Source: Gemmatimonadota bacterium (GTDB taxonomy: Bacteria; Gemmatimonadota; Gemmatimonadetes; Longimicrobiales; Gaopeijiaceae). From it: a stretch of DNA of 64,000 nucleotides. The notes under the pieces were generated by a model. The model was not told the DNA's origin and did no database searches. It saw nothing but the letters and a program-made list of their open reading frames with translations. The stretch's first letter is position 1. Each line of letters opens with the position of its first letter. This document shows positions 1-22,245 of this stretch, piece after piece. The DNA is taken from assembly GCA_039587535.1 (NCBI GenBank), contig JBDHIF010000011.1, positions 1-64,000 on the forward strand, read 5' to 3'. A program made the position numbers and the translations under genes.

Positions 1-37
1 TCTGGTCGAGCATTACGAGGGGCTCAAGACGGTGTGA
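1..37 (+). CDS. 3' end (partial) of a paralogue of the 2TM/RCK channel gene found at 20730-22016; the last 12 codons (..LVEHYEGLKTV*) match
   Basis: nt 1-37 align at ~90% with 21980-22016 including the stop codon; the gene body lies upstream of the window. Confidence 0.5.
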   Translation, partial: LVEHYEGLKTV

Positions 38-262
38 CATTGGGCCCGATTCTGGGCCCATTGGACCCGGCAGCTTCCGACATCCATTCCTGGCAAGAAC
101 GGCAGATCGTGCGCTCCGCCTTGGATTTACACGGTTTCTTGCCGGATTTCGGCTAGGCTGCTGTCGGCCTGATAAGCGTGAGGTCGGTAGTTCAAATCTA
201 CCCAGGCCCACTTTGGGAAACGGAAGCCCCGCTTGGTCTTAGGTGACTGAGCGGGGCTTCTT
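38..262 (+). ncRNA. Copy 1 of a conserved structured 3'-UTR/tRNA-like RNA element (T-arm GGTAG-TTCAAAT-CTACC plus 6-bp acceptor-like helix GGCCTG/CAGGCC), ending in an intrinsic terminator hairpin (224-262)
   Basis: About 90% identical to 22017-22245. The internal stem GGCAAGAA...TTCTTGCC, the T-loop-like hairpin and the AAGCCCCGCTT..AAGCGGGGCTT terminator are visible directly. It is not foldable as a canonical cloverleaf. Confidence 0.5.
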
Positions 263-281
263 CGTGTTCGGTTGGCAGCGG

Positions 282-310
282 ATTCCCGCTGTTCATTCCC
301 GCTGTTCACG
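282..310. repeat. Tandem 13-bp direct repeat TTCCCGCTGTTCA x2, a candidate integrase arm-type site next to the att-like repeat
   Basis: Direct repeat seen in sequence. The same motif recurs at 4617-4646 and related ATTCCCGCCGTT units at 4153-4200. Confidence 0.4.
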
Positions 311-560
311 TTCCGCCCGCCGCCGTGCGCGCCAAGAGTGCGGCCCGGAGGCGCTCCTGATCGGGTCTCTGGTAGCACTCAACAATCGTCTGGGTGTTCT
401 TCCAACCGCCTAGGTCGGCCAACACCTTCAGCGGTTCATCCACCAGATCCGACGCGAACTTGCGGCGCAGTGAGTGCCAGCCCCGACCCTTCTTCGGCTC
501 CAGCCCAGCCTTCTCCTCGGCCCGCTCCCACCAGTCCCGTGCCAGGTGCCGAGAGACGCT
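306..560 (-). pseudogene. Truncated tyrosine recombinase/phage integrase, C-terminal catalytic fragment only (..GWHSLRRKFAS..LGGWKNTQTIVECYQ..)
   Basis: Only the last ~80 aa (the H-x-x-R and catalytic Tyr region) is integrase-like. The upstream part of the ORF is non-homologous and overlaps a comEA-like gene. It is paralogous to the fragment at 4642-4900. Confidence 0.6.
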
Positions 561-573
561 GTCAGACGGCTTC

Positions 574-846
574 TTAGGGGCAGGGAAGACCCTGAGCCTT
601 AATGTCCCGCAGACGGGCCGCCGCGATTCCGCGCACTCGGACGAGTTCGTCCACTGAGGCGAACCGGCGTTGCCTTCTCGGGGTGATGATTTGTCGAGCG
701 CGCTCAGGGCCGATGTGGATGATCCTGTCGAATTGGGCGGCAGACGCCGTGTTGATGTCCACGCACGCTTGAGCACTCCCTAATGAGGGCGAGAGCAGGA
801 CAAGCGTGAGGACTATGAACAGGGCCTCTTGCAGTCTCTGCCTCAT
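574..846 (-). CDS. comEA: ComEA-like helix-hairpin-helix DNA-binding protein with signal peptide
   Basis: ..VDINTASAAQFDRIIHIGPERARQIITPRRQRRFASVDELVRVRGIAAARLRDIKAQ.. matches the ComEA HhH motif pattern (NTAS..L..LPGIG...A..I...R..G.F.S.EEL..V.GIG). Confidence 0.55.
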   Translation of the reverse strand: MRQRLQEALFIVLTLVLLSPSLGSAQACVDINTASAAQFDRIIHIGPERARQIITPRRQRRFASVDELVRVRGIAAARLRDIKAQGLPCP

Positions 847-996
847 CAGCCTTTCCTCGCCCGGGAGAGGGTCACACGCTGCACCATAGACGCTTCCGCC
901 AGTGGAGGGGCCGGCCAACGCCTTCCCGGCGCAGAGCAGTTGGCTTACGCATGCCCAACGTCCTGGAAATCTGCTGCCGCAGCGGACTGGCTACCA

Positions 997-1383
997 TCAC
1001 CGACACCCGTCTCCGCAGGTGAGGATGAGGCCACCAAGGAAGACGAGTACACCCACCGCGGCGAGTCCAAGGGTACGCACCACCGCAACCCCTCTCCACT
1101 CTACGAGCCGAAGGTTCGCAAGAGCGAAGCTTACTGGCCGCGAATCCACAATACCGTGAAGCGTGTCACCTTCGACGCGAGGGGCGTCAAGGACAACCCC
1201 GGGGCCGTCCGAGGGAAGAACTCGAACGCGGTTCGGTAGGATCTGACGACCGTTGTCCAGGGCCACAACAACCGGCTCGTTCTGCCCGGAAGTCGGAGAG
1301 ACCACGGTGACCGGCTCCCAAGTCGAGCAGCCTGTGATGACGACTGTCAGCGCTATGACGCTGAACCGAAGCCTTGCGCACAT
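997..1383 (-). CDS. Hypothetical lipoprotein (lipobox ..VITGC|S) with C-terminal hydrophobic segment
   Basis: Signal peptide plus Cys lipobox after the M at 'MCARLRFSVIALTVVITGCS'. No recognisable family. Confidence 0.35.
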   Translation of the reverse strand: MCARLRFSVIALTVVITGCSTWEPVTVVSPTSGQNEPVVVALDNGRQILPNRVRVLPSDGPGVVLDAPRVEGDTLHGIVDSRPVSFALANLRLVEWRGVAVVRTLGLAAVGVLVFLGGLILTCGDGCR

Positions 1384-1403
1384 CCAGGACCTCCTTCGGA
1401 GTG

Positions 1404-1496
1404 TCCTAACGGATTGGAATTCTGCTGCGCGGCCCGTTAGATGACCAGCGCAGCGTATCAACTAGTCCTTCCGCGACTGCAGCAATTCCTTGTTAG
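1404..1496. repeat. MITE-like ~90-bp repeat (copy R1) with terminal inverted repeats CCTAAC..GGAATTCTGCTGC / GCAGCAATTCC..GTTAGG, 20 nt upstream of the lipoprotein start
   Basis: Sequence family is shared with 2172-2258 and 3012-3102. There is a partial copy at 953-990. Confidence 0.5.
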
Positions 1497-1879
1497 GGGG
1501 CGTGCCGCTTCGCTCTGAAGTTCACCGACTCGAGCCCCTCGAAATCTGCGTCCTGAGTCCATAGCTCAGCGTCGCTCGCCAGAGTGGTCGCATAGATGAC
1601 ACTGTCGGCCAGTGGGAGCTTGAGCGAGGCTCCCAACTCAGCAGCCTCAATTGCCAAGCCTTCATCCAGGTCCACCACTCGTCCCTGACGCATGGCCGCC
1701 GCCGCCTGAAGTGCGTCTTGTCTGCCACGCTGCCGCAGGACATACCGATAGACCTCGAGGACAGTGATTGACGGGACGATGAGGACACTGGCTTCGTTGA
1801 TCACCCGCCCAAACCACTTCGCGTTGGGGCCGTCGGCGAAGAACTCGATCCAGCCTGACGAGTCGATGACGACCTTCAA
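1493..1879 (-). CDS. vapC: Type II toxin VapC (PIN-domain ribonuclease)
   Basis: MKVVIDSSGWIEFF.. has the N-terminal Asp and the distal ..TQDADF acidic motif typical of PIN. There is a 4-nt overlap with the upstream antitoxin. Confidence 0.8.
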   Translation of the reverse strand: MKVVIDSSGWIEFFADGPNAKWFGRVINEASVLIVPSITVLEVYRYVLRQRGRQDALQAAAAMRQGRVVDLDEGLAIEAAELGASLKLPLADSVIYATTLASDAELWTQDADFEGLESVNFRAKRHAP

Positions 1880-2085
1880 AACTCGCGATCCGGCTCTCGT
1901 TCGAAGTTAGGGTCCATTCCCCTGAGGAATCCCCGCATCTCCGAGATCGGGCGGACCGGGACGAGCTCGATGCGGTCCCCGATCGCGAAGGCTTCGACCT
2001 TCTGGCCCGGCTTGATCTTCAACCGCTCACGGACGGCCTTTGGGATCACCACCTGGTATTTGCTGGAGATCGTAACTGTTGACAA
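1876..2085 (-). CDS. vapB: Antitoxin VapB (AbrB/MazE/SpoVT-type swapped-hairpin)
   Basis: MSTVTISSKYQVVIPKAVRERLKIKPGQKV.. is the classic AbrB/MazE-like N-terminus. It is 69 aa and is coupled to vapC. Confidence 0.75.
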   Translation of the reverse strand: MSTVTISSKYQVVIPKAVRERLKIKPGQKVEAFAIGDRIELVPVRPISEMRGFLRGMDPNFEREPDREF

Positions 2086-2171
2086 GACTATTCCTCCATC
2101 GATGTCCTATACGTCTTACGATAGAGGTACGTGGCCGCGGGCTCAAGAGTTCCGGGGTGGGCTCCTACGCC

Positions 2172-2258
2172 CCCTAACGTCTCGGAACTCTGCTGCCGCA
2201 CCGGCGCGTTACCAGACATACCGAACAGCCTACGCGGACAGCAGCAATTCCTTGTTAG
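2172..2258. repeat. MITE-like repeat copy R2 (more divergent core), upstream of vapB
   Basis: It shares the TIRs CCTAACGTCTCGGAACTCTGCTGC ... GCAGCAATTCCTTGTTAGG. Confidence 0.45.
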
Positions 2259-2992
2259 GTGGAACCCGCTTCCGACGCCACGTCGCCAGTCAGAAGCTCC
2301 AAGGCCCGGTCTATCTCTCCCATGGCCTCCTCCGCCATCGCTCTCAGCGCCGGAAGACTCTGCTGGCGGATCCGAAACGCTGTGGCTGCGTCATCGGTCA
2401 TCAGCCGAGTCAGGACCCTCTCGGCGGCCTCGTCGGGAAGGTCAACCGGCTGACAGATCAGTTCGGCCGCGCTGATGTTTGGGCACGCCTCACGAATCTG
2501 AAGAATGAGTTCTTGAGGAATCGCGCCGCGGACCCCCTTCAGGTACTCGTCACGATAAGGCGCCTGCTGGCTCTCCAAGTTCGACAAAGCCGCATATGCA
2601 CGCTGGATCGCTTCCCTCAGCGCGACAGGCGCAATGAGGTTGAGTCTTCCGGTGGAGATGACGTCGTCGTAGGTAGTGCGGTCAGGCTTCCGTGGATTGT
2701 CTCTTCCCATGTTGTACAACGCGACAATCAGCTCATCCGTACCTTCGGCTGGCGATCCGGTCTCGAAGTAACTCGAGGAAGCAGCCGCATACTCGATCGC
2801 TCTCAAGGCCGATCGGTGAACGCCCTCCACAAAGTCACGCGACTCGCGAAGCTCCGCCAACAGGCGGATTTCGTATTCGGAGCCCAGTGCACGGTCTCGT
2901 CGGTCAGCGCTCCAGGAGTCAACGCCAAGGGCGGCGAGCACACCGACCACGATGATGAGGAACTCGGAGGAGAGCCTCTTTGCCTGCCGCAT
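2255..2992 (-). CDS. Membrane-anchored hypothetical protein, paralogue A (N-terminal TM, ~220-aa extracytoplasmic domain)
   Basis: Start corrected to MRQAKRLSSEFLIIVVGVLAALGVDSW. It is paralogous to 3117-3839 (EFLLIFVGIVAALAVDRW). Confidence 0.5.
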   Translation of the reverse strand: MRQAKRLSSEFLIIVVGVLAALGVDSWSADRRDRALGSEYEIRLLAELRESRDFVEGVHRSALRAIEYAAASSSYFETGSPAEGTDELIVALYNMGRDNPRKPDRTTYDDVISTGRLNLIAPVALREAIQRAYAALSNLESQQAPYRDEYLKGVRGAIPQELILQIREACPNISAAELICQPVDLPDEAAERVLTRLMTDDAATAFRIRQQSLPALRAMAEEAMGEIDRALELLTGDVASEAGST

Positions 2993-3011
2993 GTTCCACC
3001 TCTCGGTTCCA

Positions 3012-3102
3012 CCTAACGTCCCGGAATTCTGCTGCACGGCCCGCCTCCGCACCAGCGCAGCGTATCAACTTGCTCTTCCGCGTCTGCAGCAATTCCTGGT
3101 TA
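3012..3102. repeat. MITE-like repeat copy R3, 20 nt upstream of the start of paralogue A
   Basis: CCTAACGTCCCGGAATTCTGCTGC...CCAGCGCAGCGTATCAACTTGCTCTTCCGCG...CTGCAGCAATTCCTGGTTAG. The core is near-identical to R1. Confidence 0.5.
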
Positions 3103-3116
3103 GACCGACTTCTACC

Positions 3117-3839
3117 CTACTGGTCAAGCGCTTCCCGCACCTCGGTCAGCAACCGTTCCGTGCGCTCACTCCATCGCCGAGCGATACCCTCCGCGGCGAT
3201 CGCATATTTTTCTTGGGAGTTGAGCATCCGCGCGATCTCAGGATCTTCGGTCAAGGTGGACCAGAGAGCGGTTGCATCGGGGGAAGAGGCCCGTTCACAG
3301 TCGAACGCCGGAATCTCCCTGGGACACGCGCGTCCTCGATACAGCTCCGCCGGGACGTACGCTTCACGGAAGGCCCTGAAGCCGAAATAGCTCGGATCCT
3401 CCAAGCGTCGCCGACCGTCAGGGAGGTCTTGAGTGAAGTAGGCCACGATGTGACCCCTGAGCGCGTGGTCCGAGATCAACCGGAGGTTTCCCGTCGCCTC
3501 CAAGTCCCTGAAGCTCGCCTCGCGAGTCGGCTGCTCGAAGCGCCAGCCCGCACGGGTCACGGCCACCATCAAGCCAAAATCTGACGGTCTCGTGTCCTCG
3601 CGGATAGCACTTTGGAGCGCTGCGGCGGCTTCCTGCGCGCGGACGGAGGCCGCGAGCATCTCGTCGAAGATGGCGGCGTTGGCCTCCAGGTCGCTCAGTA
3701 CGAAAGCGAGGTACTCCTCTTCAGCGCGCGACTCGTCGAGGCCTTGCACCCATCGATCCACCGCCAGGGCCGCGACAATCCCAACGAAGATAAGGAGGAA
3801 CTCCGCTACGACCCGCCTGCGGTTGGGCGATTCACTCAC
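3117..3839 (-). CDS. Membrane-anchored hypothetical protein, paralogue B
   Basis: N-terminal TM anchor. Paralogous to 2255-2992. No known family recognised. Confidence 0.5.
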   Translation of the reverse strand: MSESPNRRRVVAEFLLIFVGIVAALAVDRWVQGLDESRAEEEYLAFVLSDLEANAAIFDEMLAASVRAQEAAAALQSAIREDTRPSDFGLMVAVTRAGWRFEQPTREASFRDLEATGNLRLISDHALRGHIVAYFTQDLPDGRRRLEDPSYFGFRAFREAYVPAELYRGRACPREIPAFDCERASSPDATALWSTLTEDPEIARMLNSQEKYAIAAEGIARRWSERTERLLTEVREALDQ

Positions 3840-4152
3840 GAAAGCTCCTTCAGAAGTCGGTGTAACTCTACTTCTACGGACCCGCCGTAAGCCCTTACGG
3901 CGTCTTACGCGGATCCGAGTATGCGCCGCACTTTCCAGCCTGGCAACGCGAACTCCCGGAAGTGTGCGCTGGGGTCCTCAGCATACGCCGGTCCGCGTAA
4001 GTCCCTCGACGCACGAAGACCCCGACGGCGCACCGCCAAGAGGAACACTTTAAAAGTCTCTTTTCGATCCCCTCCCGAACGCTCGCGGAGGAGTCCCACC
4101 TCCTCCTATCGAAGGGGGCCCCTTGGGGGGGTCGTCGTCTCGGGCGGAGAGC

Positions 4153-4200
4153 GATTCCCGCTCTAATTCCCGCCGTTCCCTCCGTTATTCCCGCCGTTCG
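4153..4200. repeat. Cluster of ATTCCCGC(C/T)GTT-like direct repeats (candidate arm-type sites) immediately upstream of RNA-element copy 2
   Basis: gcgATTCCCGCTCTaATTCCCGCCGTTccctccgttATTCCCGCCGTTcgg. Confidence 0.35.
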
Positions 4201-4228
4201 GAGGCGGCATCTTCCGGCACCGTGAATT

Positions 4229-4388
4229 GGCAAGAGTGGCAGATCGTGCAGCCCATCAATGGTTTAGACGATTTCTTGCCGTGATTCGCGCGAAGCGCGA
4301 GGCGCCTGATAAGCGTGAGGTCGGTAGTTCAAATCTACCCAGGCCCACTGAGGCTCCTCGGTCGAGTGACCGAGGAGCCTCTTTCGTT
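4229..4388 (+). ncRNA. Copy 2 of the structured tRNA-like RNA element (diverged 5' half, identical 3' T-arm/acceptor end) with its own terminator hairpin (4351-4388)
   Basis: GGCAAGAG..TTCTTGCC stem, conserved GGCAGATCGTGC, CCTGATAAGCGTGAGGTCGGTAGTTCAAATCTACCCAGGCCCAC, then GAGGCTCCTCGG..CCGAGGAGCCTC-TTTCGTTC. Confidence 0.45.
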
Positions 4389-4523
4389 CAGGTTGGTCGA
4401 GAACTAACGACCTCACGGTCCCACTCAGCTGACTCGGTAGTTCACCCGGAGCGCGCGGTCAGCGCGCGGAGGGGAGCGAGGGCCGGTCAGGTACTGGCGA
4501 CAGCGCCAGCCCGGGAAGCCCGC

Positions 4524-4597
4524 AGCTCAAATCTACCCAGGCCCACTTTTTGGAAGTAGATGCCCCGCTTGGTCTTAGGTGACTGAGCGGGGCTTTT
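4524..4597 (+). repeat. Partial copy 3 of the RNA element (3' ~22 nt att-like core GCTCAAATCTACCCAGGCCCAC) plus a terminator hairpin identical to that of copy 1
   Basis: 4524-4650 is near-identical to 196-312 (core, terminator, 13-bp direct repeats). Confidence 0.5.
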
Positions 4598-4616
4598 GCG
4601 TGTCCGGGTGGCAACG

Positions 4617-4646
4617 GATTCCCGCTGTTCATTCCCGCTGTTCACC
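4617..4646. repeat. Tandem TTCCCGCTGTTCA x2 direct repeat (second copy of the 282-310 arm-type-like repeat)
   Basis: Identical motif and position relative to the integrase fragment. Confidence 0.4.
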
Positions 4647-4900
4647 CTCCACCTGCCGCCTCTCGTGCCGATAGTGCGGCCCTAGGGCGCTCCTGATCGG
4701 GTGTGTGATAGCACTCGACGATCGTCTGGGTGTTCTTCCAGCCACCAAGGTCGGCCGACACCTTCGACGGTTCATCCACCAGATTCGACGCGAACTTTCG
4801 TCGCAGGGAGTGCCAGCCCCCACCCCGCTTCGGCTCCACGCCAGCCGGGTCCTCGGCCTTGCGCCACCAGTCCCTGACCAGGTGCCTGGAACAAGGCCTA
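4642..4900 (-). pseudogene. Second truncated tyrosine integrase C-terminal fragment (..GGGWHSLRRKFASNLVDEPSKVSADLGGWKNTQTIVECYHTPDQE..)
   Basis: Paralogous to 306-560. The upstream part of the 277-aa ORF is low-complexity and non-homologous. Confidence 0.6.
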
Positions 4901-5637
4901 GTAGATGGGGCGCCGGGGGGATGTAGGAGTCCCCGATTCCAGGCGCGTGTCTCGCTACGGGCCTCCAGGGCCTCGTAAGCTCCCTCGGTGAGAGGCGTCA
5001 CACGCTCGAGACCAAGTTTGTCACTCTCAGTGCGCCAGCGGACGCTTCTCGCCCTCAAGTCCGCGTCCATTTCGGTCGTTGAGGCCGAAGGCGGCTGCTT
5101 TGTCGACTGGCGCGCAAGCTTCGAGGTGGCTGAGGGGCCGGCTGATGAGGCCTGCGGAATGATGAAGGGTGTGTATGAGGAAGGCATGTCTGCCCTGCGG
5201 GAGGCCCACGCCGGATGGGTACACCGGTCGACGTATGCGGGCGGGGCGGTAGGTACTGGATAGGTGGTGTCCGGTGCCCTCCCGTTCCCTTTGGCATGCA
5301 CCCCGACCCGCGTCTCACACATCTGTCCGCCACGTCTCACTCGGCTCGATCTGAAGGGCTTGGCGCGTTGGGATTGGACACGACAACCCGGGCACGGCCA
5401 GGACGACCGGTAGCCCAATGCCAATCCCAGCAACCGCGGCGTGAATCGGTCCGGACCCCGCTGTCTGACGGCCAAGCTGCGTCAGCAGCCATGCCGTTAT
5501 GGGGATTCCCAGGAAGGCACCCGTGCCCAGCTGAGCGATGGAGCGGCGACCACAGGTAAAGGCCAGACTGGAGTTGCGCGCTCCCACCACGGTTCGAACA
5601 CCGATCTCTCGGGTCCGCTCCGAAACCGAGAAGGAAG

Positions 5638-5669
5638 GGGTCTAGACGAGTTCTTGCCGTGATCCGCGA
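5638..5669 (+). repeat. Fragment of the RNA element 5' half (GGTCTAGACGAGTTCTTGCCGTGATCCGCG versus copy 2 GGTTTAGACGATTTCTTGCCGTGATTCGCG) upstream of amtB
   Basis: 28/30 nt match to 4261-4290, so this is an integration scar. Confidence 0.4.
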
Positions 5670-5775
5670 TATTACCGCTCGTTGATCAAGTGGACATAAT
5701 CGACGGGGCGCCGTAAGATCTTCCGCTCACGTATCAGCATGACTCCACCTCAACCCCGAGAAGGAACTGCTGCCC

Positions 5776-7077: not shown

Positions 7078-7091
7078 GGCGAGTTCTTGCC

Positions 7092-7427
7092 ATGAAGATG
7101 ATCATCGCGGTGATCAAGGCGGAGCAGCTACCTGCCGTGAAACAGGCGCTGTTTGACGCCGAGATCAGACACATGACGGCCACATCCGTCCTGGGAACTG
7201 CGCCGCGTACAGAGCAGCAGATGTACCGTGGTGTGAAGAAGGAGGTTTCGCTCTTCAAGCGGGTTCGCCTGGAGGTGGCGGTCAATGACGCCAACGTGGA
7301 GCGCGCCATCGAGGCCATATCCCGCGGATGTATGGAGTCGGGCGGCGCCGGGAAGATCTTCGTGACCGAGCTGCACGACGTCGTCACTGTGTGGACCGGC
7401 GAGCGCGGTTCGCGAGCACTGTACTGA
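7092..7427 (+). CDS. glnK: Nitrogen regulatory protein P-II (GlnK-type, divergent T-loop)
   Basis: MKMIIAVIKAEQLPAVKQAL.. is a P-II fold of 111 aa. The T-loop reads GTAPRTEQQMYRGVKKE (Tyr retained, RQKGH replaced). Confidence 0.8.
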   Translation: MKMIIAVIKAEQLPAVKQALFDAEIRHMTATSVLGTAPRTEQQMYRGVKKEVSLFKRVRLEVAVNDANVERAIEAISRGCMESGGAGKIFVTELHDVVTVWTGERGSRALY

Positions 7428-7434
7428 GGGCGTC

Positions 7435-8871: not shown

Positions 8872-8891
8872 CGGCTGCAGAAGGATCGATC

Positions 8892-10196: not shown

Positions 10197-10220
10197 ACCT
10201 CAAGGTCCTGGAGGCTGCGG

Positions 10221-12497: not shown

Positions 12498-12559
12498 GGG
12501 ACGGGCCGGCGCTGCGTTGGGGATTCGCGACAGACTGACTTAACACTTCGTAGAGGCGC

Positions 12560-13444: not shown

Positions 13445-13458
13445 GTGTGGCGTAGGCG

Positions 13459-15053: not shown

Positions 15054-16729
15054 TCGAGCTCGGCACGATCACGGGGGGAGCGGAGGGTGCCGTTCGGGAC
15101 GCGCGCAGGAAGGTTCACGCGGCTCTCGAGCGGTTGACGGCGGATGACATGCTGGCCAGTCGGATCGCTTCGGTCACCTCCCAGATCTTTCGGGCGATCG
15201 AGCGCGGTGCGAATCCAGGCAGGATCATCGTTCGCTTCGATGAGGCGGGAGCCCAGCCTACGTTCGTTCTCGACCTGATCGGTGTCGGCGGTGAGGTCGA
15301 CGAGGCGACGGCCGCATCGTTCTTCGATCAGGTCGTTTGGGTTCGGGTCGGCGATGTACCGTGCCTGCGGCTTGGTCTCTACATCCACATCGCCCCGGGA
15401 TTGGAGCTTACCGAGCGCCGCGTCGCGGAATTGCGCGGCGTGATCGAGCAGAAGGGGAGGGATGCGCTGATGCAGGAGCTCACCCTGAAGAACCGGGAGC
15501 TCCAGGATTCGTTCGACAACCTCCGTCGGACCACCACGGCCAAAGAGCGGATGGAGAGCGAGCTCAACATCGGTCGGGACATCCAGATGAGCATGCTGCC
15601 GCTCGAATTTCCGGCGTTCCCGCACCGCACCGACTTTACGGTATTCGCTACCCTCGAGCCTGCGCGGGAGGTCGGAGGGGATTTCTACGACTTCTTCCTC
15701 CTCGACGAGGATCGCTTCTGTTTCTGTGTTGGAGATGTCTCCGGCAAAGGGGTGCCTGCGGCACTCTTCATGGCCGTCACCAAGACGCTTATCAAGTCGC
15801 GCGCGACCAACGATTTCTCACCAGCCAGCATTCTCACGCACGTCAACGACGAGATCTCGACCAACAACGACTCGGCGATGTTTGTGACGCTCTGGCTGGG
15901 CATCCTGGACGTGACGTCCGGAGCGCTGGAGTACACGAACGCCGGACATAACCCGCCTTATCTCCTGCGCCACACGGGGGAGGTGGTGCGGTTGGACGAG
16001 CGGCACGGTCCCGTGCTCGGTGCTGTGGACGGACTCGTCTATTCCGAGGGCTCCGGTCAGTTGGAGCGCGGTGACGTCGTCTTCGTGTACACCGACGGTG
16101 TCACCGAGGCGATGGACCCGGACGGGCAGCTCTACGAGGAGGACCGCCTCGTTGAGGTCCTTCGGGCGAGCGATATCGATTCGGTGGAGTCTTTGGTTCG
16201 TGCATCGACCGACGACGTGTGGCGTTTTCAGGCCGACGCGGAACAGGCCGACGACGTCACCGTGCTGGCGGTCGAGTTCTCCGGCCGGCCCGGTGGCTCC
16301 GAAGGCGTCCACATTCTCGAGCTGTCAGTTGCGAATCGACTCGAAGAGATCGACTCCGTCAACGAATCCTTCGAGGCGTTCGCAGCCGAGCACGGGCTCC
16401 CGGAGAAGGTCCGGAGAAGTATGAAGCTCGTTTTCGACGACTTGTTGAACAACGTGATCTCGTACGCATACGAGGACGAAGAGGAGCATCGCATCGGCGT
16501 GCGCGTCGAGTTGTCCTCCGATCGGGTCGCCGTACGCATCAGTGACGACGGGCACCCGTTCAATCCTTTCGGCCGGAATGCGCCGGACACGGCGCTGGCC
16601 CTGGGTGCGAGGGAGATTGGAGGTCTCGGTATCCACCTCGTGCAGAACCTGATGGACGAGGTCTCGTACACGCGGCGAACCGATGAAAACGTCGTTCTGC
16701 TGGTGAAATACCTATCAAATTCGGAATGA
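15050..16729 (+). CDS. RsbU-like PP2C phosphatase fused to a C-terminal RsbW-like GHKL kinase domain (N-terminal regulatory domain plus coiled coil)
   Basis: The PP2C has ..GGDFYDFF..CVGDVSGKGVPAALFMA..YTDGVTEA.. The C-terminal HATPase_c has ..DDLLNNVISYAY..ISDDGHPFNPF..GLGIHLV.. Confidence 0.65.
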   Translation: MIELGTITGGAEGAVRDARRKVHAALERLTADDMLASRIASVTSQIFRAIERGANPGRIIVRFDEAGAQPTFVLDLIGVGGEVDEATAASFFDQVVWVRVGDVPCLRLGLYIHIAPGLELTERRVAELRGVIEQKGRDALMQELTLKNRELQDSFDNLRRTTTAKERMESELNIGRDIQMSMLPLEFPAFPHRTDFTVFATLEPAREVGGDFYDFFLLDEDRFCFCVGDVSGKGVPAALFMAVTKTLIKSRATNDFSPASILTHVNDEISTNNDSAMFVTLWLGILDVTSGALEYTNAGHNPPYLLRHTGEVVRLDERHGPVLGAVDGLVYSEGSGQLERGDVVFVYTDGVTEAMDPDGQLYEEDRLVEVLRASDIDSVESLVRASTDDVWRFQADAEQADDVTVLAVEFSGRPGGSEGVHILELSVANRLEEIDSVNESFEAFAAEHGLPEKVRRSMKLVFDDLLNNVISYAYEDEEEHRIGVRVELSSDRVAVRISDDGHPFNPFGRNAPDTALALGAREIGGLGIHLVQNLMDEVSYTRRTDENVVLLVKYLSNSE

Positions 16730-16745
16730 AGGAGTATTACGGATC

Positions 16746-17078
16746 ATGAACATCTCGGTCAGCGTCAACGGAGACGTCACTGTCGTCGGCTTCGAGGGGA
16801 ATCTCGACACGAACACGGCGCCCGAAGCGGAAGCGCGCCTGGATGAGCTGGCGAGTGGGGGGGGCGGCAAGATCCTGATCGACTTCGCCGATCTCGACTA
16901 CATCTCTAGCGCCGGGCTTCGAGTGCTTCTGGCGACCGCGAAGAAGCTGCGTGGTGCAGGAGGCAACCTTCGACTGTGCAGCCTCAACGAGATGGTTTCG
17001 GAGGTATTCGAGATCTCGGGCTTCAGCACGATCTTCGCGGTGTTCCCAACGGAAGCGGAGGCGCTGGAGGGCTTCTGA
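16746..17078 (+). CDS. Anti-sigma-factor antagonist-like STAS protein (RsbV/SpoIIAA family)
   Basis: 110 aa with ..KILIDFADLDYISSAGLRVLL.. and a conserved Ser in DYISS. Confidence 0.75.
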   Translation: MNISVSVNGDVTVVGFEGNLDTNTAPEAEARLDELASGGGGKILIDFADLDYISSAGLRVLLATAKKLRGAGGNLRLCSLNEMVSEVFEISGFSTIFAVFPTEAEALEGF

Positions 17079-17197
17079 TGGTCGATGCTCATTTGGGTTC
17101 GCATAGTGCATCGCCGGGTGTCGTCTCCGAGGAATCGCGCACTCTGTGACATCGTAGTCGTGTCTAGTCGGACGGCTGCATTTTTCGGGAGTCTGCT

Positions 17198-19786
17198 GTG
17201 AATATCGTTATTGCGGACAGCGTCGTTCGTGGAACGCTGAGCCCGGAGCGGCAGTTCCACGGCATTCCCTCGAACCTCGGTGCCCGCGAGATCGCCCGGC
17301 TCATGGGCCGGGGTCGAGCATATGGCGAAGGCCCCCTGCCGTCGATTATCCGAGCAGCGGCGGCATCAGGCGGGCGCACGGGTCTCGTGCTGCTCCGTGA
17401 GGTGGCACCGCAGGACGAGGCAGGCGCGTCGAACGGTGTATCGGGAGCTCGTGAGGCGCTCGCGGAATGGGTCGACCCGGTTCGATCCGTAGCCGCTGCG
17501 GCATCGGCGCTCGATTGCGCTCCCGGGCGAATTCCCTGGCGCACGCTGATCAAAAGGATCGCCGGCGTGGCGGGTGTCGAAGAGAGTTCCGTAGCCGACG
17601 GTATCGCCGACCTCGGCTTCCTCGTGGTGGGATGCCAAACGGAGGAGCGGATCCAGGCGATCGCGACATTCCTGAGGACTGTCCTCGGTTTCGAGCGCGT
17701 CGCTGTAAGTCCCCACCTCGTAGGGAGTGCCACGGCCGAAGCGCACTACGCGGTGCTACGCCACAACCTGCCTCGGTCCGGCGTGAACGTACTTCTCGAT
17801 CTGGGTGAGGCAGCCAGGTGGGTCGACATCGATCCCGATCGTGCCGGGCTCGCGGGAGGTGCGCCTTGCGTGATCGGGCCGCGTGAAGCTCGCGAGCAGA
17901 TGGAGGCCGACGCCCAGCGCATCGTCCAATTGATCTGCATGCACTGGACGAGGGCGAAACTGCGCGCTCTGGCAGGAGGGTTCAGCGGGAGTCTGCTTTT
18001 CCTCGCCGAGGGCTTGAAGGGCGAGGCGCGGACTGAGCCGATGGTGATCAAGATCGACGCCTTCGCTCAGATGCGACGTGAGCTCGACGGCTACCATCAG
18101 GTGAAGGACCTCTTTGGCAAGCACGTGCCCACGTTCGGGTACCCGGTCCGTCAGGGCAGCCTGCTCGGTGTCGGGATGGAGCTGGCAGCGATGAAGGGCG
18201 ACCCAACTACGCTGCAGGACGACTTCGAGAAGGCGGACTCAGAGTCTCTGCTGGTACGCTTTCTCACCCGGCTCGAGAAATCTCTGGACCTCCTGTCTGA
18301 AAAGCTCTACGGCAACACGCTAGAGCGTGGCAGCGTCGCCCCGTTCCGGATTTTCGGGCTGCACTCGGCTCAACAGATCGTGTGGCTGAGGGAGAACGCT
18401 ACGATCATTCAAGGCTATTTCGATGAGTCCAGCCACTCCGTTGAAAACGTCGATCTGGACCAGCTCGAGAATGTGGCACGCTTGATAACGCGGAATCCCG
18501 ATGCGGTCCAGTCCGAGCTCTGTCTGCAGCACGGCGACCTGAATCTCGCCAACGTCATCTGCGACGAAGGCGACAACGTGTGGTTCATCGACTGGACGCA
18601 CAGTGGAATCCACCCGCTGGAACTCGACTTCGCGAAGCTCGAGAACGACGTGAAGTTCGTGATGAGCAAGGACTTCGATGTCGATGATCTACCCCGGCTG
18701 CACGCATTCGAAGAGTACCTTCTCAACCAGAGGATCCCGGGTTCCGCAGAAGAGCTTCCGGACGCGTTGAAGTTCGCGAAGTGGGATCTGCGCTTCCGGA
18801 AGATCCTCGCCGCCGTGCGTCTGATTCGTCAGCGCTGTGACCGGCTCAAAGAGGGTGATGATTGGCTGGTCTATCGGGTGGCCTTGCTGCGATATGCCAT
18901 GCACACGCTCAGCTTCGATCAGCGCAGGGGAGGGGGTGAGTGTGACGAGACTCAGCTCATGTATGCCCTGTACTCGTGCGAGTCGCTCTCGCTTTCGCTC
19001 GTTGCCGACGATTTTCACCTCAAAATTCGCGCCGAGCGGCCCGCGTCGTACCCCGAACGCCAGCGCATCTCGATCGACGAGTCGCTGTGGCTTCTGGATT
19101 GCGAAGATTACGCCCCTCCCTACCACGTCGATCAGACCGTGTTGGAAGCGGCGGGTGATCGCGGCGACAAGGGGTGGGCGGATCCGGAAGAGGTGGACTC
19201 TGCCGTGCTGGCCGAGCGACCGGCACGCTTCCGGGACGATGAGGGACGGCCGCTGAACCCGCGTGGCCGCACGGGGATCGCTGGCCGGGGACTTCTGGGC
19301 CTATGGGGCGCCAACGCGTCGGTCGTGGGTGTCGTGCTGCGTACCAGCGCGGTGACGGGTGAACTCCAGATCCTGCTCGGTTCCAGCGAGGACGACCCGA
19401 CGCTCCAGGTGCCGAAGGGGTTCCTCTTCCCGGACGAACAACCAGAAGACGGTCTTCTCCGCGTCATGCAGGTGGAAGCCGGTTGGCGACCTCAGGGGGC
19501 GCCGATCCCGTTGAGTGACGGCTACGCGTACGACGCCCGCCAGACGGACCACGCCTGGGTCGAGCAGCGAGCGTATCTGTTCGACCCTGCGGAGGAGGAC
19601 GTTCCGGATCTCTTCGACCCGGCGGGTGATCTCGACGAGGTCTCGTGGTGGCCCCTGGATGTGGAGACGATGACCCGGATTCCGGCGGGTCAGGCTCCGG
19701 TGATCAACGAGGCGCTGGAAGCCGCACGCGGGGCGGGGCGGCTCGACGAAGAGCTGGCGGGGCGACTGATCCGCAGGGCCGTCTGA
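17198..19786 (+). CDS. Three-domain protein combining an N-terminal isochorismatase-like domain, a choline/ethanolamine-kinase (APH-fold) domain and a C-terminal NUDT9-like Nudix domain with a degenerate Nudix box
   Basis: The kinase region has HGDLNLANVICDEGDNVWFIDWTHSG (Brenner motif plus DxE/W). The Nudix region has ..NPRGRTGIAGRGLLGLWGANASVVGVV.. (NUDT9 signature) and the box GFLFPDE-x7-RVMQVEAGW (REx2EE degraded to RVMQVE). The N-terminal region has ..LVVGCQTEERIQAI.. resembling the G-x-C/T-D motif region of cysteine hydrolases but lacking the Cys. Confidence 0.5.
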   Translation: MNIVIADSVVRGTLSPERQFHGIPSNLGAREIARLMGRGRAYGEGPLPSIIRAAAASGGRTGLVLLREVAPQDEAGASNGVSGAREALAEWVDPVRSVAAAASALDCAPGRIPWRTLIKRIAGVAGVEESSVADGIADLGFLVVGCQTEERIQAIATFLRTVLGFERVAVSPHLVGSATAEAHYAVLRHNLPRSGVNVLLDLGEAARWVDIDPDRAGLAGGAPCVIGPREAREQMEADAQRIVQLICMHWTRAKLRALAGGFSGSLLFLAEGLKGEARTEPMVIKIDAFAQMRRELDGYHQVKDLFGKHVPTFGYPVRQGSLLGVGMELAAMKGDPTTLQDDFEKADSESLLVRFLTRLEKSLDLLSEKLYGNTLERGSVAPFRIFGLHSAQQIVWLRENATIIQGYFDESSHSVENVDLDQLENVARLITRNPDAVQSELCLQHGDLNLANVICDEGDNVWFIDWTHSGIHPLELDFAKLENDVKFVMSKDFDVDDLPRLHAFEEYLLNQRIPGSAEELPDALKFAKWDLRFRKILAAVRLIRQRCDRLKEGDDWLVYRVALLRYAMHTLSFDQRRGGGECDETQLMYALYSCESLSLSLVADDFHLKIRAERPASYPERQRISIDESLWLLDCEDYAPPYHVDQTVLEAAGDRGDKGWADPEEVDSAVLAERPARFRDDEGRPLNPRGRTGIAGRGLLGLWGANASVVGVVLRTSAVTGELQILLGSSEDDPTLQVPKGFLFPDEQPEDGLLRVMQVEAGWRPQGAPIPLSDGYAYDARQTDHAWVEQRAYLFDPAEEDVPDLFDPAGDLDEVSWWPLDVETMTRIPAGQAPVINEALEAARGAGRLDEELAGRLIRRAV

Positions 19787-19788
19787 TC

Positions 19789-20733
19789 GTGTCTCTCCTG
19801 AACCAAGAACGCGCCGCGCTCGACGGATTCCGCTCCGCGCGGCCTCTGGTGACGAGGTCCGACGCCCTCGAGGAGGCTGCAGCGAATCGAGCTGATACGG
19901 ATCGACCGGTGGAGGAGCTCGTGTGGACGACGTTCCTCCTGCGTACGGTGCTCGAGGCGGGTCGGACCGTCCGCGCCGTACCTCCGTCCGTGTTGGAGCT
20001 CAAGCGAGACGGGTCACCGGTGACCGCGCTCGAGCGTGACATCGAGCTCGAAATCAAAGAGGCTCTCGAGGTGTTCGAACCCGAGGCGGTCTTCGTAGGT
20101 GAGGAAAGTGGCGGGTGGCTGCACGACGCGGGTTGGACACTCAGCATCGATCCCATCGATGGCACGTGGGCGTTCCTCTCGCACACGGAGACATTCTCCG
20201 TGGTGATGAACCTCTTTCTAGAAGGCCAGCCCTTCATGGGCGTCGTGGCGAGTCCGTTGACCGGTGAGATCGGTTACGCGGCAGCGGGTGGAGGGACCCG
20301 GCTCGTGCGCCTCGACGTCCTCGGCGAAGGCGACCAGGGGTTCGCGCTACCGTTGGGCGATCGAGACTCCAAGAAGACCCTCGTGAACTTGCACCCGGCC
20401 GAACGAGGCTCGCGGCTGGTGTCGGCCTTCTACGAAGCATGGGAACGACGGGACGTCCGTATGGTCCGTGCGCCCGGTGGATCCCCGTCGTGGGCCATGC
20501 TCGAGGCGGCGCGGGGACACTTCACTTATGTGAACGAGTGGGCCAAGTCCGCAGCGGATCCGTGGGATCTGGCTGCAGGCGTCCTCCTCGTGAACGGAGC
20601 GGGCGGCGTGGTCGTGGATCTCGACGGCCAACCGATCGATCCCGTGGGCCACATCGGCCCATTCGTCGCCAGCGTGTCCGAGCAGCAGTGCTCACGCGTC
20701 TTGTCGATCGTACGCGAGGCCTTAAGCCCATGA
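19789..20733 (+). CDS. Inositol monophosphatase / CysQ-family phosphatase (3'(2'),5'-bisphosphate nucleotidase-like)
   Basis: It has ..FVGEESG.., DPIDGT and WDLAAG motifs. The start was moved to GTG 19789, just after the upstream stop, because the upstream part of the 19645 ORF overlaps the previous gene. Confidence 0.65.
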   Translation: MSLLNQERAALDGFRSARPLVTRSDALEEAAANRADTDRPVEELVWTTFLLRTVLEAGRTVRAVPPSVLELKRDGSPVTALERDIELEIKEALEVFEPEAVFVGEESGGWLHDAGWTLSIDPIDGTWAFLSHTETFSVVMNLFLEGQPFMGVVASPLTGEIGYAAAGGGTRLVRLDVLGEGDQGFALPLGDRDSKKTLVNLHPAERGSRLVSAFYEAWERRDVRMVRAPGGSPSWAMLEAARGHFTYVNEWAKSAADPWDLAAGVLLVNGAGGVVVDLDGQPIDPVGHIGPFVASVSEQQCSRVLSIVREALSP

Positions 20734-22016
20734 GTTTTTGGCGGACCTCCGAGACGCCACCGGTGTCGACCGGCGCCAGACTGAGAATCGTCGGCGTCGT
20801 CCTCGTCTTTGTCCTCGTTGCAGGGTCCTTCCTCGCCGGAGTCGAAACCTCGGGCCTCGAAGCGACGGAGGCGGGCTCGATTCTCGCGTGGATCTACTAC
20901 GCAGCGGGGCTGTTCGTCTTCGGTGGATTGGATCTCGGCACTCCGATCGGTGGGCCAATCGCTGCGCGAGGGATGCTGTGGGTTGCGTACTTCTTGGCGC
21001 CCGCGATCACGACGACCACGGTTGTGGAAGCAGTCATTAGGCTCGTCCGCCCGGCTCGGTCGCCGGCAGCATCGGTCACGGGCCACCTGATCCTGGTCGG
21101 GGCCGGCCCGATCGGCCTGGCGTACCTCAAGGCCGTTCGTCGGGTCGATCCTGATGTCCCAGTGCTCATCGTGGATCGCTTCGAGGGTGAGGTGACACTT
21201 GCCGAGGTCGAGCGCTTGGGTGGGGTTCATCCCGTTTCCGTGGATCCACGGCGGCCGGCGGCCCTCGAAGTCGTGGGGTTGGAGCGTGCCGATCGGATGG
21301 TCGTGGTGACGGACGACGACCTCACCAATCTCGAGGTGGCATGGGCGGCGCGGGCAGCTCGGGCGGACCTCCCCATCGCCGTGCATGTGGCCGACCTCAC
21401 CCTGCTTCGGCCCGTCAATCGGCTCGTGCGGGACCAAGCCCGAGCCGCGGATCCGGGCGGAGCACCGCCCCTGGTGTTCAACACCCACAGGATCGGAGCA
21501 CTGCACCTGTACGAGCGCTTCCTCCACCCGCATTTCGAGGGTACACGGTACGAGGACGTTGTCGTGCTCGGCGGATTCGGGCGCTTCTCGCAGACCATCC
21601 TGGAGCTCTTGAGGGTGACGGCTGCGGATGAAATCGAGCGATTGGTCGTGGTCGACCCCGATGCATCGAGGAAGGTACGTCAATTCGCGGTGGACGTACC
21701 CCTGGAAGTCCTGAGTTTCACGACGGTGGACGGCGACCTCGAAGACCCCGGGACGTGGGCACGGGTCGACGATGAGGTCGCGGGGCTCGAGGCCACTCCG
21801 GTGTATCTGCTCGCCTCGTCCGACGAGGTCGTGAACTTCCGGGCTGCCATGCTCCTGCGGGCCCGCTCGAGGGAGCCGCGGGTCTTCGCTCGGTGCTTCC
21901 ACCGCGGCCAGTTTGCAGAGTCACTCGCGGAGCAGCGTGATTTCGAACTGCTCGCGTTCGAGGACGTTCTTCGCGATGCCCTGGTCGAACACTACGAGGG
22001 GCTCAAGACGGTGTGA
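20730..22016 (+). CDS. 2TM pore-loop ion channel with two C-terminal RCK/TrkA-N (NAD-binding Rossmann) domains and a non-canonical filter (..FVFGGLDLG..)
   Basis: TM1, a pore-helix-like AWIYYAAGLFVFGG and TM2 are followed by two GxGxxG Rossmann domains (LILVGAGPIGLAY.., VVVLGGFGRFS..). The start overlaps the IMPase stop (ATGA). The 3' end is duplicated at window start. Confidence 0.6.
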   Translation: MSFWRTSETPPVSTGARLRIVGVVLVFVLVAGSFLAGVETSGLEATEAGSILAWIYYAAGLFVFGGLDLGTPIGGPIAARGMLWVAYFLAPAITTTTVVEAVIRLVRPARSPAASVTGHLILVGAGPIGLAYLKAVRRVDPDVPVLIVDRFEGEVTLAEVERLGGVHPVSVDPRRPAALEVVGLERADRMVVVTDDDLTNLEVAWAARAARADLPIAVHVADLTLLRPVNRLVRDQARAADPGGAPPLVFNTHRIGALHLYERFLHPHFEGTRYEDVVVLGGFGRFSQTILELLRVTAADEIERLVVVDPDASRKVRQFAVDVPLEVLSFTTVDGDLEDPGTWARVDDEVAGLEATPVYLLASSDEVVNFRAAMLLRARSREPRVFARCFHRGQFAESLAEQRDFELLAFEDVLRDALVEHYEGLKTV

Positions 22017-22245
22017 CATTGGGCCGGTTCTTGGGCCCACTCGACCCGGTAGCTTCCGACGTCACATTCCGGCAAGAACGGCAGATCGTGCGCCCCGCCT
22101 TGGGTTTACACGGTTTCTTGCCGGAATTCGGCTAAGCTGCTATCGGCCTGATGAGCGTGAGGTCGGTAGTTCAAATCTACCCAGGCCCACTTTTGGAAGT
22201 GATGGCCCCGCTTGGCTTTGGATGGCCAAGCGGGGCTTCTTCGTT
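22017..22245 (+). ncRNA. Copy 4 (best-context copy) of the structured tRNA-like 3'-UTR RNA element with terminator (22204-22244), immediately downstream of the channel gene
   Basis: Same architecture as copy 1 with ~90% identity over ~225 nt. Confidence 0.5.

What the first reader, a model, noticed from the sequence alone, without database searches (positions are those of the whole stretch)
1..22245. Duplicated channel-gene tail plus RNA element at both ends of a 22-kb segment
The first 260 nt of the window (gene tail ..LVEHYEGLKTV* plus 3'-UTR RNA plus terminator) are ~90% identical to 21980-22245. Either a second channel paralogue with the same 3'-UTR element lies upstream of the window, or the whole 22-kb block (island remnants plus the nitrogen, stressosome and channel genes) is flanked by direct repeats and was once mobilised as a unit.
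Basis: seen in the sequence. Interest (0 to 1): 0.55.

Follow-up and report, generated by a model that had tools for sequence, protein, structure and literature searches.

The report
tRNA-Ile integration-site scars, not an RNA element
The repeated "gene tail plus RNA element" is the right-hand attachment site (integrase-binding arm plus the 3' half of tRNA-Ile) left by mobile islands that insert into the tRNA-Ile gene of Gemmatimonadota. The first 22 kb of the window is a decayed pile-up of such islands, which is an ordinary kind of genome feature.

Summary
The repeat is real: window 1-265 matches 21980-22245 at about 88-89% identity, and contigs from the same population extend it to about 312 nt. 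Upstream of the window there is no channel paralogue, only an 88-nt tail fragment. The "3'-UTR RNA" is not an RNA family. Its last 46 nt are the 3' half of tRNA-Ile(GAU), from the anticodon loop to the discriminator. The roughly 130 nt before it form the P arm of an attP-type site, with two arm-type direct repeats and a conserved module. The same layout occurs in 70 loci, nearly all from Gemmatimonadota. Some lie downstream of an intact tRNA-Ile and some are followed directly by a tyrosine integrase gene.

The window holds five such remnants, labelled A to E. Island 1 (213-4303) is bounded by perfect 46-bp repeats and has matching arm sites on both sides. Window 4350-4547 is native flank of tRNA-Ile. 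It is followed by a second integrase remnant and then the 16-kb amtB-to-channel block, which ends in copy E.

A and E are both right ends (attR type), not the two ends of one element. The whole 22 kb has atypical composition and sits between backbone genes that lie next to tRNA-Ile or its remnants in relatives. It is an array of islands, not one unit.

The parts
1..37 (+). Last 37 nt of an 88-nt fragment of a TrkA_N channel gene (..LVEHYEGLKTV*). It is a dead remnant, not the end of a full gene.
   Evidence: L001/L002 show the fragment starts 47 nt left of the window and abuts a P-arm fragment. tblastn matches only channel residues 499-525.
38..166 (+). Copy A, P arm of E type: arm-type repeats TGGGCCCRTT x2 (about 41-63) and a conserved module (about 92-144).
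   Evidence: Same layout in 70 Gemmatimonadota loci. 88% identical to 22017-22145.
167..212 (+). Core A: 3' half of tRNA-Ile(GAU), from the anticodon loop CTGATAA to the discriminator. It is attL of island 1 fused to attR of an older element.
   Evidence: 100% identical to 4304-4349 (D3). 95.7% identical to nt 31-75 of the intact tRNA-Ile genes of L084 and L085.
213..310 (+). P' arm of island 1: terminator hairpin (about 225-262) and two arm-type sites ATTCCCGCTGTT (282-306).
   Evidence: 85% copy at 4548-4847 (D1).
306..776 (-). C-terminal fragment of the island 1 tyrosine integrase (pseudogene).
   Evidence: Pfam PF00589 positions 101-171 only.
213..4303 (.). Island 1 (4.1 kb, decayed): integrase fragment, HHH_3 ORF, MazE/PIN toxin-antitoxin pair, unknown ORFs.
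   Evidence: Perfect 46-bp direct repeats at both ends and the same arm-type motif on both arms. GC 0.618, tetranucleotide r 0.872.
4152..4303 (+). Copy B, P arm of island 1: arm-type sites ATTCCCGCCGTT (4166-4198) and the module (4229-4288).
   Evidence: (D4, D8).
4304..4349 (+). Core B (attR of island 1).
4350..4547 (+). Native downstream flank of tRNA-Ile: terminator (4350-4385), an inverted piece of the tRNA (4400-4417), and a T arm split by an 88-nt insert (4437-4524). It ends in copy C (4525-4547, the last 23 nt of the tRNA).
   Evidence: 77% identical to the tandem units that follow intact tRNA-Ile in L084, and 72% to those in L085.
4548..5668 (.). Island 2 remnant: P' terminator, arm sites 4618-4642, truncated integrase 4642-5475 (-), and P-arm module remnant D (5639-5668).
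5776..22016 (+). 16-kb cargo block: amtB, glnB, glnA, SPFH, dCache-HAMP-STAS, protoglobin-STAS, STAS, RsbT-PP2C, PP2C-kinase, STAS, TCAD9 kinase-NUDIX, IMPase, TrkA_N channel. No integrase of its own.
   Evidence: GC 0.635 against 0.666 +/- 0.004 and tetranucleotide r 0.937 against 0.983 +/- 0.004 in 300 length-matched backbone controls.
22017..22145 (+). Copy E, P arm of E type (arm repeats 22020-22042, module 22071-22123).
22146..22191 (+). Core E: tRNA-Ile 3' half with one substitution (CTGATGA).
   Evidence: D3, 98%.
22192..22245 (+). Terminator of the island P' type. Homology to A ends here, and the M20 peptidase gene (22321-23640, -) follows.

Best explanation
The repeated unit is an attR-type attachment site of a family of tyrosine-integrase islands that insert into the tRNA-Ile(GAU) gene of Gemmatimonadota. 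Each site has three parts.

- A P arm of roughly 130-180 nt, carrying two or three arm-type direct repeats whose sequence differs between island subfamilies, and a conserved module of about 75 nt.
- The 45-46-nt 3' half of tRNA-Ile, which is the identity block shared by attP and attB.
- Often a terminator supplied by the next element's P' arm.

Repeated integrations built a tandem array at the tRNA-Ile locus, and deletions then eroded it. The inferred order along the window is as follows.

1. A P-arm fragment lies just left of the window.
2. Copy A is the right end of a lost island that ended in a channel gene; only 88 nt of that gene survive.
3. Island 1 follows.
4. Copy B follows.
5. The native tRNA flank follows, ending in copy C.
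6. The island 2 remnant follows, ending in D.
7. The 16-kb amtB-to-channel block follows. It is the rest of an island, or island-trapped DNA, whose integrase end was deleted.
8. Copy E is its right end.
9. The chromosomal backbone follows.

A and E resemble each other over gene tail, P arm, core and terminator because they are the same (right) end of two related elements that both carried a channel gene next to the P arm. The two copies are about 12% diverged.

Shown directly: the repeat anatomy, the identity of the core with real tRNA-Ile, the attL/attR geometry in relatives, the arm-site pairing for island 1, the absence of an upstream paralogue, and the atypical composition.

Inferred: the order of events, the position of the crossover point, and that the 16-kb block arrived as island cargo.
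For: - Core identity. Core A, B and E (46 nt) match nt 31-75 of the intact tRNA-Ile(gat) genes of L084, L085 and L086 at 93-96%. The weak Rfam tRNA hit covers only the acceptor and T arm.
- Distribution. The pattern TTCTTGCC-N16-41-CTGATRAGCGTGAGGTCGG found 72 loci in the genome collection. Seventy carry the element and nearly all are Gemmatimonadota; the other two are real tRNA-Ile genes. The same order of parts is seen throughout: arm repeats, module, tRNA half.
- Geometry in relatives. An intact tRNA-Ile lies upstream on the same strand in L011, L046 and L055, with the element 0.9-4.2 kb downstream.
- Integrases. An integrase gene on the opposite strand follows the core directly in L014 (full-length, 400 aa, PF00589), L040, L048, L058 and L061, as it does at window A and C.
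- Island 1. It has perfect 46-bp direct repeats and the motif ATTCCCGCYGTT twice on each arm. The window has 6 exact sites against 0.43 expected.
- No paralogue upstream.
- Native flank. Window 4303-4547 matches the units that follow intact tRNA-Ile in L084 and L085.
- Backbone position. Relatives place tRNA-Ile 357 nt from the M20 gene (L085, L086) or just before ECH (L084, which is collinear with window 28.5-43.5 kb). L088 carries an E-type site 330 nt from the Rce1-like gene.
- Composition. Window 1-22245 has GC 0.62-0.65, against 0.666 for the right backbone and 0.67 for the left backbone, and it lies outside all 300 length-matched controls.
- Channel homologues. The cluster is conserved at 64-69% channel identity in L077, L079 and L082 without any att site downstream; L075 (88%) and L078 (69%) also lack one. 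Only the 93% relative L076 has one.
- General principle. Islands regenerate the tRNA and leave a displaced 3' fragment, and they form tandem arrays (PMC4383910).
Against: - No intact tRNA-Ile gene is present in the window or in the 5.3 kb upstream, so the array is orphaned and its left end is unexplained.
- The 16-kb block has no integrase and no P' arm of the E type.
- Its stressosome-to-channel part is a conserved cluster in relatives, where it is not next to an att site. The cargo status of the block therefore rests on position and composition only.
- Copy C has only the last 23 nt of the tRNA yet is followed by an island P' arm. This fits poorly with a crossover in the anticodon loop.
- The P-arm module is unusually well conserved for an att arm, and its role is unknown.
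- All comparison sequences come from metagenome assemblies, where repeats can be misassembled.
Confidence: 0.85

Rival explanations
1. The roughly 170 nt after the channel gene is a functional structured RNA (a 3'-UTR element or tRNA-like small RNA). It is duplicated because it belongs with the channel gene, and islands merely use its tRNA-like end as a target.
For: Both copies fold well below shuffled controls (z = -6.1 and -5.0). The module before the tRNA half is strongly conserved across the phylum. By eye, a small hairpin inside the module changes on both sides between lineages. A terminator follows.
Against: There is no Rfam family at gathering or permissive thresholds. RNAalifold on 40 sequences finds only the T arm plus one invariant pairing, with a covariation term of -0.44. 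The 8-bp outer stem is lost without compensation in the Gemmatimonadaceae type, where only 3-5 of 8 pairs remain. The element is not linked to channel genes: none of the 70 loci carrying it has one, and five channel homologues lack it. The low folding energy is explained by the terminator, the T arm and the palindromic GGGCCC arm repeats.
Confidence: 0.05
2. The 22-kb segment is one mobile element, and A and E are its own terminal direct repeats (attL and attR).
For: Direct repeats lie at both ends. Integrase remnants sit near the left end. The whole segment has atypical composition and is flanked by backbone on both sides.
Against: The attL and attR of one element share only the core. A and E also share about 130 nt of P arm and 88 nt of gene tail to the left of the core, so both are right ends. 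Inside the segment there are a complete internal pair of 46-bp repeats (A and B), a stretch of native tRNA flank (4350-4547) and a second P'-integrase end. The integrase-side arms are of the ATTCCCGC type, whereas the E arm is of the TGGGCCC type.
Confidence: 0.05
3. A is a scar of an ordinary segmental duplication or gene conversion of the channel 3' end and its downstream region within this genome, unrelated to island integration.
For: Only 88 nt of the gene survive. The junction with the preceding P-arm fragment is illegitimate rather than a site-specific crossover. The region is rearrangement-prone, since the M20 gene has different neighbours in every relative.
Against: A and E differ by about 12%, while cores A and B are identical. 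A is slightly closer to the copy in another lineage (L076, 90.2-90.7%) than to E (87-89%), which argues for separate acquisitions. A lies inside an array of att sites and is followed directly by an island P' arm.
Confidence: 0.05

Closest known systems
Genomic islands or prophages integrated in tRNA genes by tyrosine integrases, including tandem arrays (Islander-type islands; lambda- or P4-like heterobivalent integrases with arm-type sites)
   Same: The target is the 3' part of a tRNA gene. A displaced 3' tRNA fragment marks the far end. The integrase gene lies next to the regenerated tRNA end and is read towards it. Arm-type direct repeats occur on both arms. Several elements are stacked at one tRNA (PMC4383910).
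   Different: This is a tRNA-Ile(GAU) target in Gemmatimonadota, for which I found no description. The P arm carries an unusually conserved 75-nt module shared by subfamilies whose arm repeats differ. In this window the intact tRNA is missing and both integrases are dead.
Phage or island attP sites that carry the 3' end of a protein-coding target gene to restore it
   Same: The repeat includes the last codons and the stop codon of a gene.
   Different: Here the channel gene is not the target. Integration is in the tRNA-Ile half about 130 nt downstream. The channel tail is island-side DNA next to the P arm, and the other lineages checked have channel genes without the site.
tRNA-like or 3'-UTR structured RNAs (Rfam families, tmRNA, bacterial Y RNA)
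   Same: A T arm and an acceptor 3' strand are present, and the predicted folding is strong.
   Different: Only half a tRNA is present. There is no acceptor 5' strand, no D arm, no Rfam match and no covariation.

Membership tests
tRNA-targeting tyrosine-integrase genomic island (Islander definition) | An intact tRNA gene at one end and a displaced fragment of the same tRNA, in direct orientation, at the other end | tested here: inconclusive
   Met in relatives L011, L046, L055, L084 and L085. In the window only fragments are present (cores A, B, C, E). No intact tRNA-Ile is found in the window or in the 5.3 kb upstream.
tRNA-targeting tyrosine-integrase genomic island (Islander definition) | A tyrosine integrase gene inside the island next to the tRNA-proximal end | tested here: met
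   PF00589 fragments at 306-776(-) and 4642-5475(-), directly after cores A and C. A full-length homologue occupies the same position in L014. Both window copies are truncated.
tRNA-targeting tyrosine-integrase genomic island (Islander definition) | Identical core repeats bounding the element | tested here: met
   Island 1: 167-212 equals 4304-4349, 46 of 46 nt.
Heterobivalent (lambda-type) integrase att site | Arm-type repeats of one motif on both the P and P' arms | tested here: met
   ATTCCCGCYGTT at 282, 295 (P') and at 4166, 4187 (P). The window has 6 exact sites against 0.43 expected. This is not met for the E-type arm, which has no P' partner in the window.
Heterobivalent (lambda-type) integrase att site | Integrase-catalysed integration and excision at the core | not testable with these tools
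   This needs recombination assays or detection of circular junctions.
Single mobile element spanning 1-22245 | The two terminal repeats share only the crossover/identity block, with one cognate integrase | tested here: not met
   A and E share the P arm and the gene tail to the left of the core. Internal att sites and native flank are present. The arm types are mismatched.
Structured RNA family / 3'-UTR element | A match to a curated family, or a conserved secondary structure with covariation | tested here: not met
   Rfam gives 0 hits at gathering thresholds and only a 16-bit partial tRNA hit at permissive settings. The RNAalifold covariation term is -0.44. The stem is not conserved.
tRNA gene | A complete cloverleaf (acceptor, D, anticodon and T arms) | tested here: not met
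   ARAGORN finds none. Only nt 31-75 of tRNA-Ile are present.

The most novel reading that the evidence does not exclude
The conserved 75-nt module joined to the tRNA-Ile 3' half, always followed by a terminator, could be an island-encoded tRNA-half-like small RNA expressed from attP and attR. Separately, the roughly 200-nt unit that splits the T loop and repeats in tandem after native tRNA-Ile (L084, L085, L076, L088, window 4350-4547) could be a new miniature integrative element that uses the tRNA T loop. Neither idea is excluded by my tests.
Probability: 0.1. Interest if true: 0.55.

Novelty: new member of a known kind. Interest (0 to 1): 0.3.

Why it matters
The result removes a false lead, because there is no new 3'-UTR RNA and no hidden channel paralogue. 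It gives correct boundaries for foreign DNA in this genome. It defines a phylum-wide attachment-site architecture for tRNA-Ile-specific islands in Gemmatimonadota, a poorly studied phylum. That architecture can be used to map islands in their genomes. It also suggests that a 16-kb nitrogen-assimilation, stressosome and channel block sits in horizontally acquired DNA.

Tried and rejected
- ARAGORN and Rfam (gathering and permissive) gave no tRNA, tmRNA or RNA family on the window.
- I considered tmRNA, two-piece tmRNA, Y RNA and tRNA-Sec from the T-arm-like end. I rejected them because only half a tRNA is present and it matches tRNA-Ile.
- A consensus fold of 40 homologous sites showed no structure beyond the T arm.
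- Searches for a channel gene next to the element in the 70 loci carrying it found none.
- Contexts of eight channel homologues show the cluster conserved but with no att site, except in L076.
- A viral-contig scan with the module-plus-core pattern gave 0 hits, so there is no evidence that the islands are phages.
- I tried to find the left end of the array and the intact tRNA-Ile through contigs carrying the Rce1-like gene. These yielded backbone and an inverted att remnant in L088, but no tRNA.
- I could not reconstruct the exact order of deletions and inversions, or the crossover position.
- The metagenome scan was not used.
Full report
**Observation.** Window 1-265 and 21980-22245 are homologous, with 89% mean column identity. 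Similarity stops at about 265/22245. The ungapped repeat finder gives 87% over 264 nt. Two contigs from the same population, L001 and L002 (GCA_039585135 and GCA_039585055), are 99.5-100% identical to the left end of the window. They show that the homology continues 47 nt beyond the window edge, for about 312 nt in all (87.9%). A 30-nt piece of the repeat occurs three times exactly in the window, against none expected.

**What lies upstream.** L002 supplies 5.27 kb to the left of the window. It contains no channel gene. Only the last 27 codons (88 nt) are present (tblastn and blastn). Directly to their left is a second copy of the first 44-65 nt of the "RNA element". Then come about 400 nt of spacer and the genes Rce1-like, NmrA and a P-type ATPase.

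**What the element is.** ARAGORN and Rfam find nothing. A permissive scan gives only a 16-bit tRNA match covering an acceptor stem and a T arm. The last 46 nt read GCCTGATAAGCGTGAGGTCGGTAGTTCAAATCTACCCAGGCCCACT. This sequence contains an anticodon loop CTGATAA (anticodon GAT), a variable loop, a T arm, the acceptor 3' strand and a discriminator. They match nt 31-75 of the intact tRNA-Ile(gat) genes found in relatives L084, L085 and L086 at 93-96%.

A scan of one genome per species, using a piece of the upstream module plus the start of the tRNA half, returned 72 loci. Two were real tRNA-Ile genes hit by chance. The other 70 were nearly all Gemmatimonadota (Gemmatimonadaceae and Longimicrobiales), often with two or three copies within a few kb. 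All share one layout:

- two or three short direct repeats that differ between groups (TGCTGTCGATT, CCCGCCATTTGA, TGGGCCCGTTC or TTCCCGCCGTT);
- a conserved module of about 75 nt (CGGCAGATCRYGC...ACGATTTCTTGCCGG);
- about 24 variable nt;
- the tRNA-Ile 3' half.

In L011, L046 and L055 an intact tRNA-Ile lies 0.9-4.2 kb upstream on the same strand. In L014, L040, L048, L058 and L061 an integrase gene on the opposite strand follows the core directly. The L014 integrase is a full-length 400-aa tyrosine recombinase.

This is the textbook geometry of islands integrated in tRNA genes, as described in PMC4383910. The regenerated tRNA forms attL, followed by the P' arm, the integrase and the cargo. 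The far end is attR, made of the P arm and the displaced 3' fragment of the tRNA. The "RNA element" is thus the P arm plus core of such a site.

**Anatomy of the window.**

- Island 1 runs from 213 to 4303. It is bounded by perfect 46-bp repeats (167-212 and 4304-4349).
- Island 1 has the arm motif ATTCCCGCYGTT twice just inside each end. The same motif occurs twice more at 4618-4642. That gives six exact sites against 0.43 expected.
- Island 1 holds an integrase C-terminal fragment, an HHH_3 ORF, a MazE/PIN pair and unknown ORFs.
- After core B comes 4350-4547. This stretch is 77% identical to the units that follow intact tRNA-Ile in L084 and also matches L085. It is native chromosomal flank, and it ends in a 23-nt copy of the tRNA 3' end (copy C).
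- Directly after C there is an 85% copy of island 1's P' arm and a second integrase.
- That second integrase aligns only to residues 259-399 of the L014 enzyme and is dead.
- Next comes D, a 30-nt remnant of a P-arm module fused to the amtB upstream region.
- The 16-kb block 5776-22016 encodes amtB, glnB, glnA, an SPFH protein, a stressosome-like set, a TCAD9 kinase-NUDIX protein, an inositol monophosphatase and the TrkA_N channel.
- The block ends in copy E (P arm, core with one substitution, terminator). The M20 peptidase gene follows in convergent orientation.

**Why A and E look alike.** The attL and attR of one element share only the identity block. A and E also share the P arm and 88 nt of channel gene to the left of the core. 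Both are therefore right ends. The arm repeats of A and E (TGGGCCCRTT) differ from those next to the two integrases (ATTCCCGC). The integrases therefore do not belong with E.

A is best read as the right end of an older island that also ended in a channel gene. Nearly all of that island was deleted, and the left deletion endpoint lies in yet another P arm. A differs from E by about 12%. It is marginally closer (90.2-90.7%) to the copy in another lineage, L076, which argues for separate acquisitions. The terminator is shared because it belongs to the P' arm type of this island family. In A and C the terminator is followed by arm sites and an integrase, whereas in E the P' arm stops after the terminator.

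**Is the block foreign?** Three lines of evidence say yes.

1. Position. The block lies between native tRNA flank (B to C) and an attR (E).
2. Comparative context. In L085 and L086 (M20 92% identical) an intact tRNA-Ile sits 357 nt from the M20 gene. In L084 (94%) the tRNA-Ile and its units sit just before ECH, and that contig is collinear with window 28.5-43.5 kb. On the left, NmrA and Rce1-like are backbone shared with L088 and L089 at 89% nt identity. L088 has an E-type site, inverted, 330 nt from the Rce1-like gene.
3. Composition. The block has GC 0.635 and tetranucleotide r 0.937. Three hundred length-matched pieces of the right backbone give 0.666 +/- 0.004 (minimum 0.658) and 0.983 +/- 0.004 (minimum 0.975). 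Island 1 is more extreme still, and the left backbone has GC 0.67.

Three points argue against a single mobile unit. The block has no integrase. Internal att sites and native flank interrupt the 22 kb. The stressosome-to-channel cluster is conserved in three other lineages (64-69% channel identity) with a different downstream neighbour each time and no att site. Only the 93% relative L076 has channel-P arm-core.

The channel stop codon overlaps the conserved left edge of the P arm (GGTGTGAC against a consensus of CGTGTGTC). This suggests that the junction arose once by a microhomology-mediated event and was then inherited or transferred. That last point is inference.

**RNA reading.** Both copies fold with z-scores of -6.1 and -5.0. 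This is explained by the terminator, the T arm and the palindromic GGGCCC repeats. A consensus fold of 40 sites finds only the T arm and one invariant pairing, with a covariation term of -0.44. The 8-bp stem GGCAAGAA/TTCTTGCC is lost without compensation in the Gemmatimonadaceae type, although my search pattern fixed the 3' strand. By eye, a small inner hairpin varies on both sides between lineages; I did not test this formally. I rate a functional RNA at about 5%.

**Open points.**

- No intact tRNA-Ile is present in the window or in the 5.3 kb upstream.
- The crossover position is uncertain. The identity block starts at the anticodon loop, but an island P' arm follows copy C, which holds only the last 23 nt of the tRNA.
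- The role of the conserved module is unknown.
- A viral-contig scan gave no hits, so the nature of the islands (phage, ICE or other) is open.
- I found no paper describing tRNA-Ile islands in Gemmatimonadota.

**Verdict.** This is an ordinary kind of feature: a decayed tandem array of islands at a tRNA gene, in a little-studied phylum, with a well-defined and reusable att architecture.

Noticed in passing
window 4350-4547; L084 20383-20918 (- strand); L085 247-520; L076 2694-2746; L088 5945-6010: A unit of about 200 nt follows native tRNA-Ile in Longimicrobiales relatives, in tandem (x3 in L084, x2 in L085). Its parts are a terminator, an inverted copy of tRNA nt ~41-56, and a T arm split after GGWAGTTCA by a 51-90-nt insert (CCCGGAGCC...CCCGCAGC) with TCA on both sides. 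It then continues with the rest of the tRNA 3' end. In L076 the bare insert sits in the T loop of an otherwise intact core. Its origin is unexplained; it could be a miniature element or a second att type.
   Followed up: partly
window 954-985, 1405-1436, 2173-2204, 3012-3043; 1444-1496 and 3051-3103: Island 1 carries families of 26-53-nt repeats (72-92% identical) in what look like intergenic spots (D6, D7, D9, D10). They may be operators or a small repeat element.
   Followed up: no
window 10629-22016; L077, L079-L083: A gene cluster is conserved in four lineages. It comprises dCache-HAMP-STAS, protoglobin-STAS (RsbR-like), STAS, RsbT-PP2C, PP2C-kinase, STAS, TCAD9 kinase-NUDIX, inositol monophosphatase and a TrkA_N channel. 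Some lineages have an extra cNMP-gated ion channel. This hints at a stressosome-controlled ion or nucleotide signalling module.
   Followed up: partly
window 22321-23640 (-): The M20 peptidase gene is highly conserved (70-94% identity across the phylum) but has different neighbours on both sides in every relative examined (L084, L085, L087). In the window it is inverted relative to tRNA-Ile compared with L085. It looks like a local rearrangement hotspot.
   Followed up: partly
window 587-694: Contig L001 from the same population lacks these 108 nt inside the integrase/HHH_3 region of island 1. This is ongoing decay or an assembly difference.
   Followed up: no
window 22008-22025 and 29-46: The channel gene's last codons and stop (ACGGTGTGAC) overlap the conserved left edge of the P arm, which reads CGTGTGTC in other genomes. 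This suggests that a microhomology junction created the channel-P arm fusion.
   Followed up: no
L088 6001-6174: In a relative with NmrA and Rce1-like at 89% nt identity, an E-type P arm plus core lies in inverted orientation 330 nt downstream of the Rce1-like gene. This implies an inversion with an endpoint at the att array in one of the two lineages.
   Followed up: no
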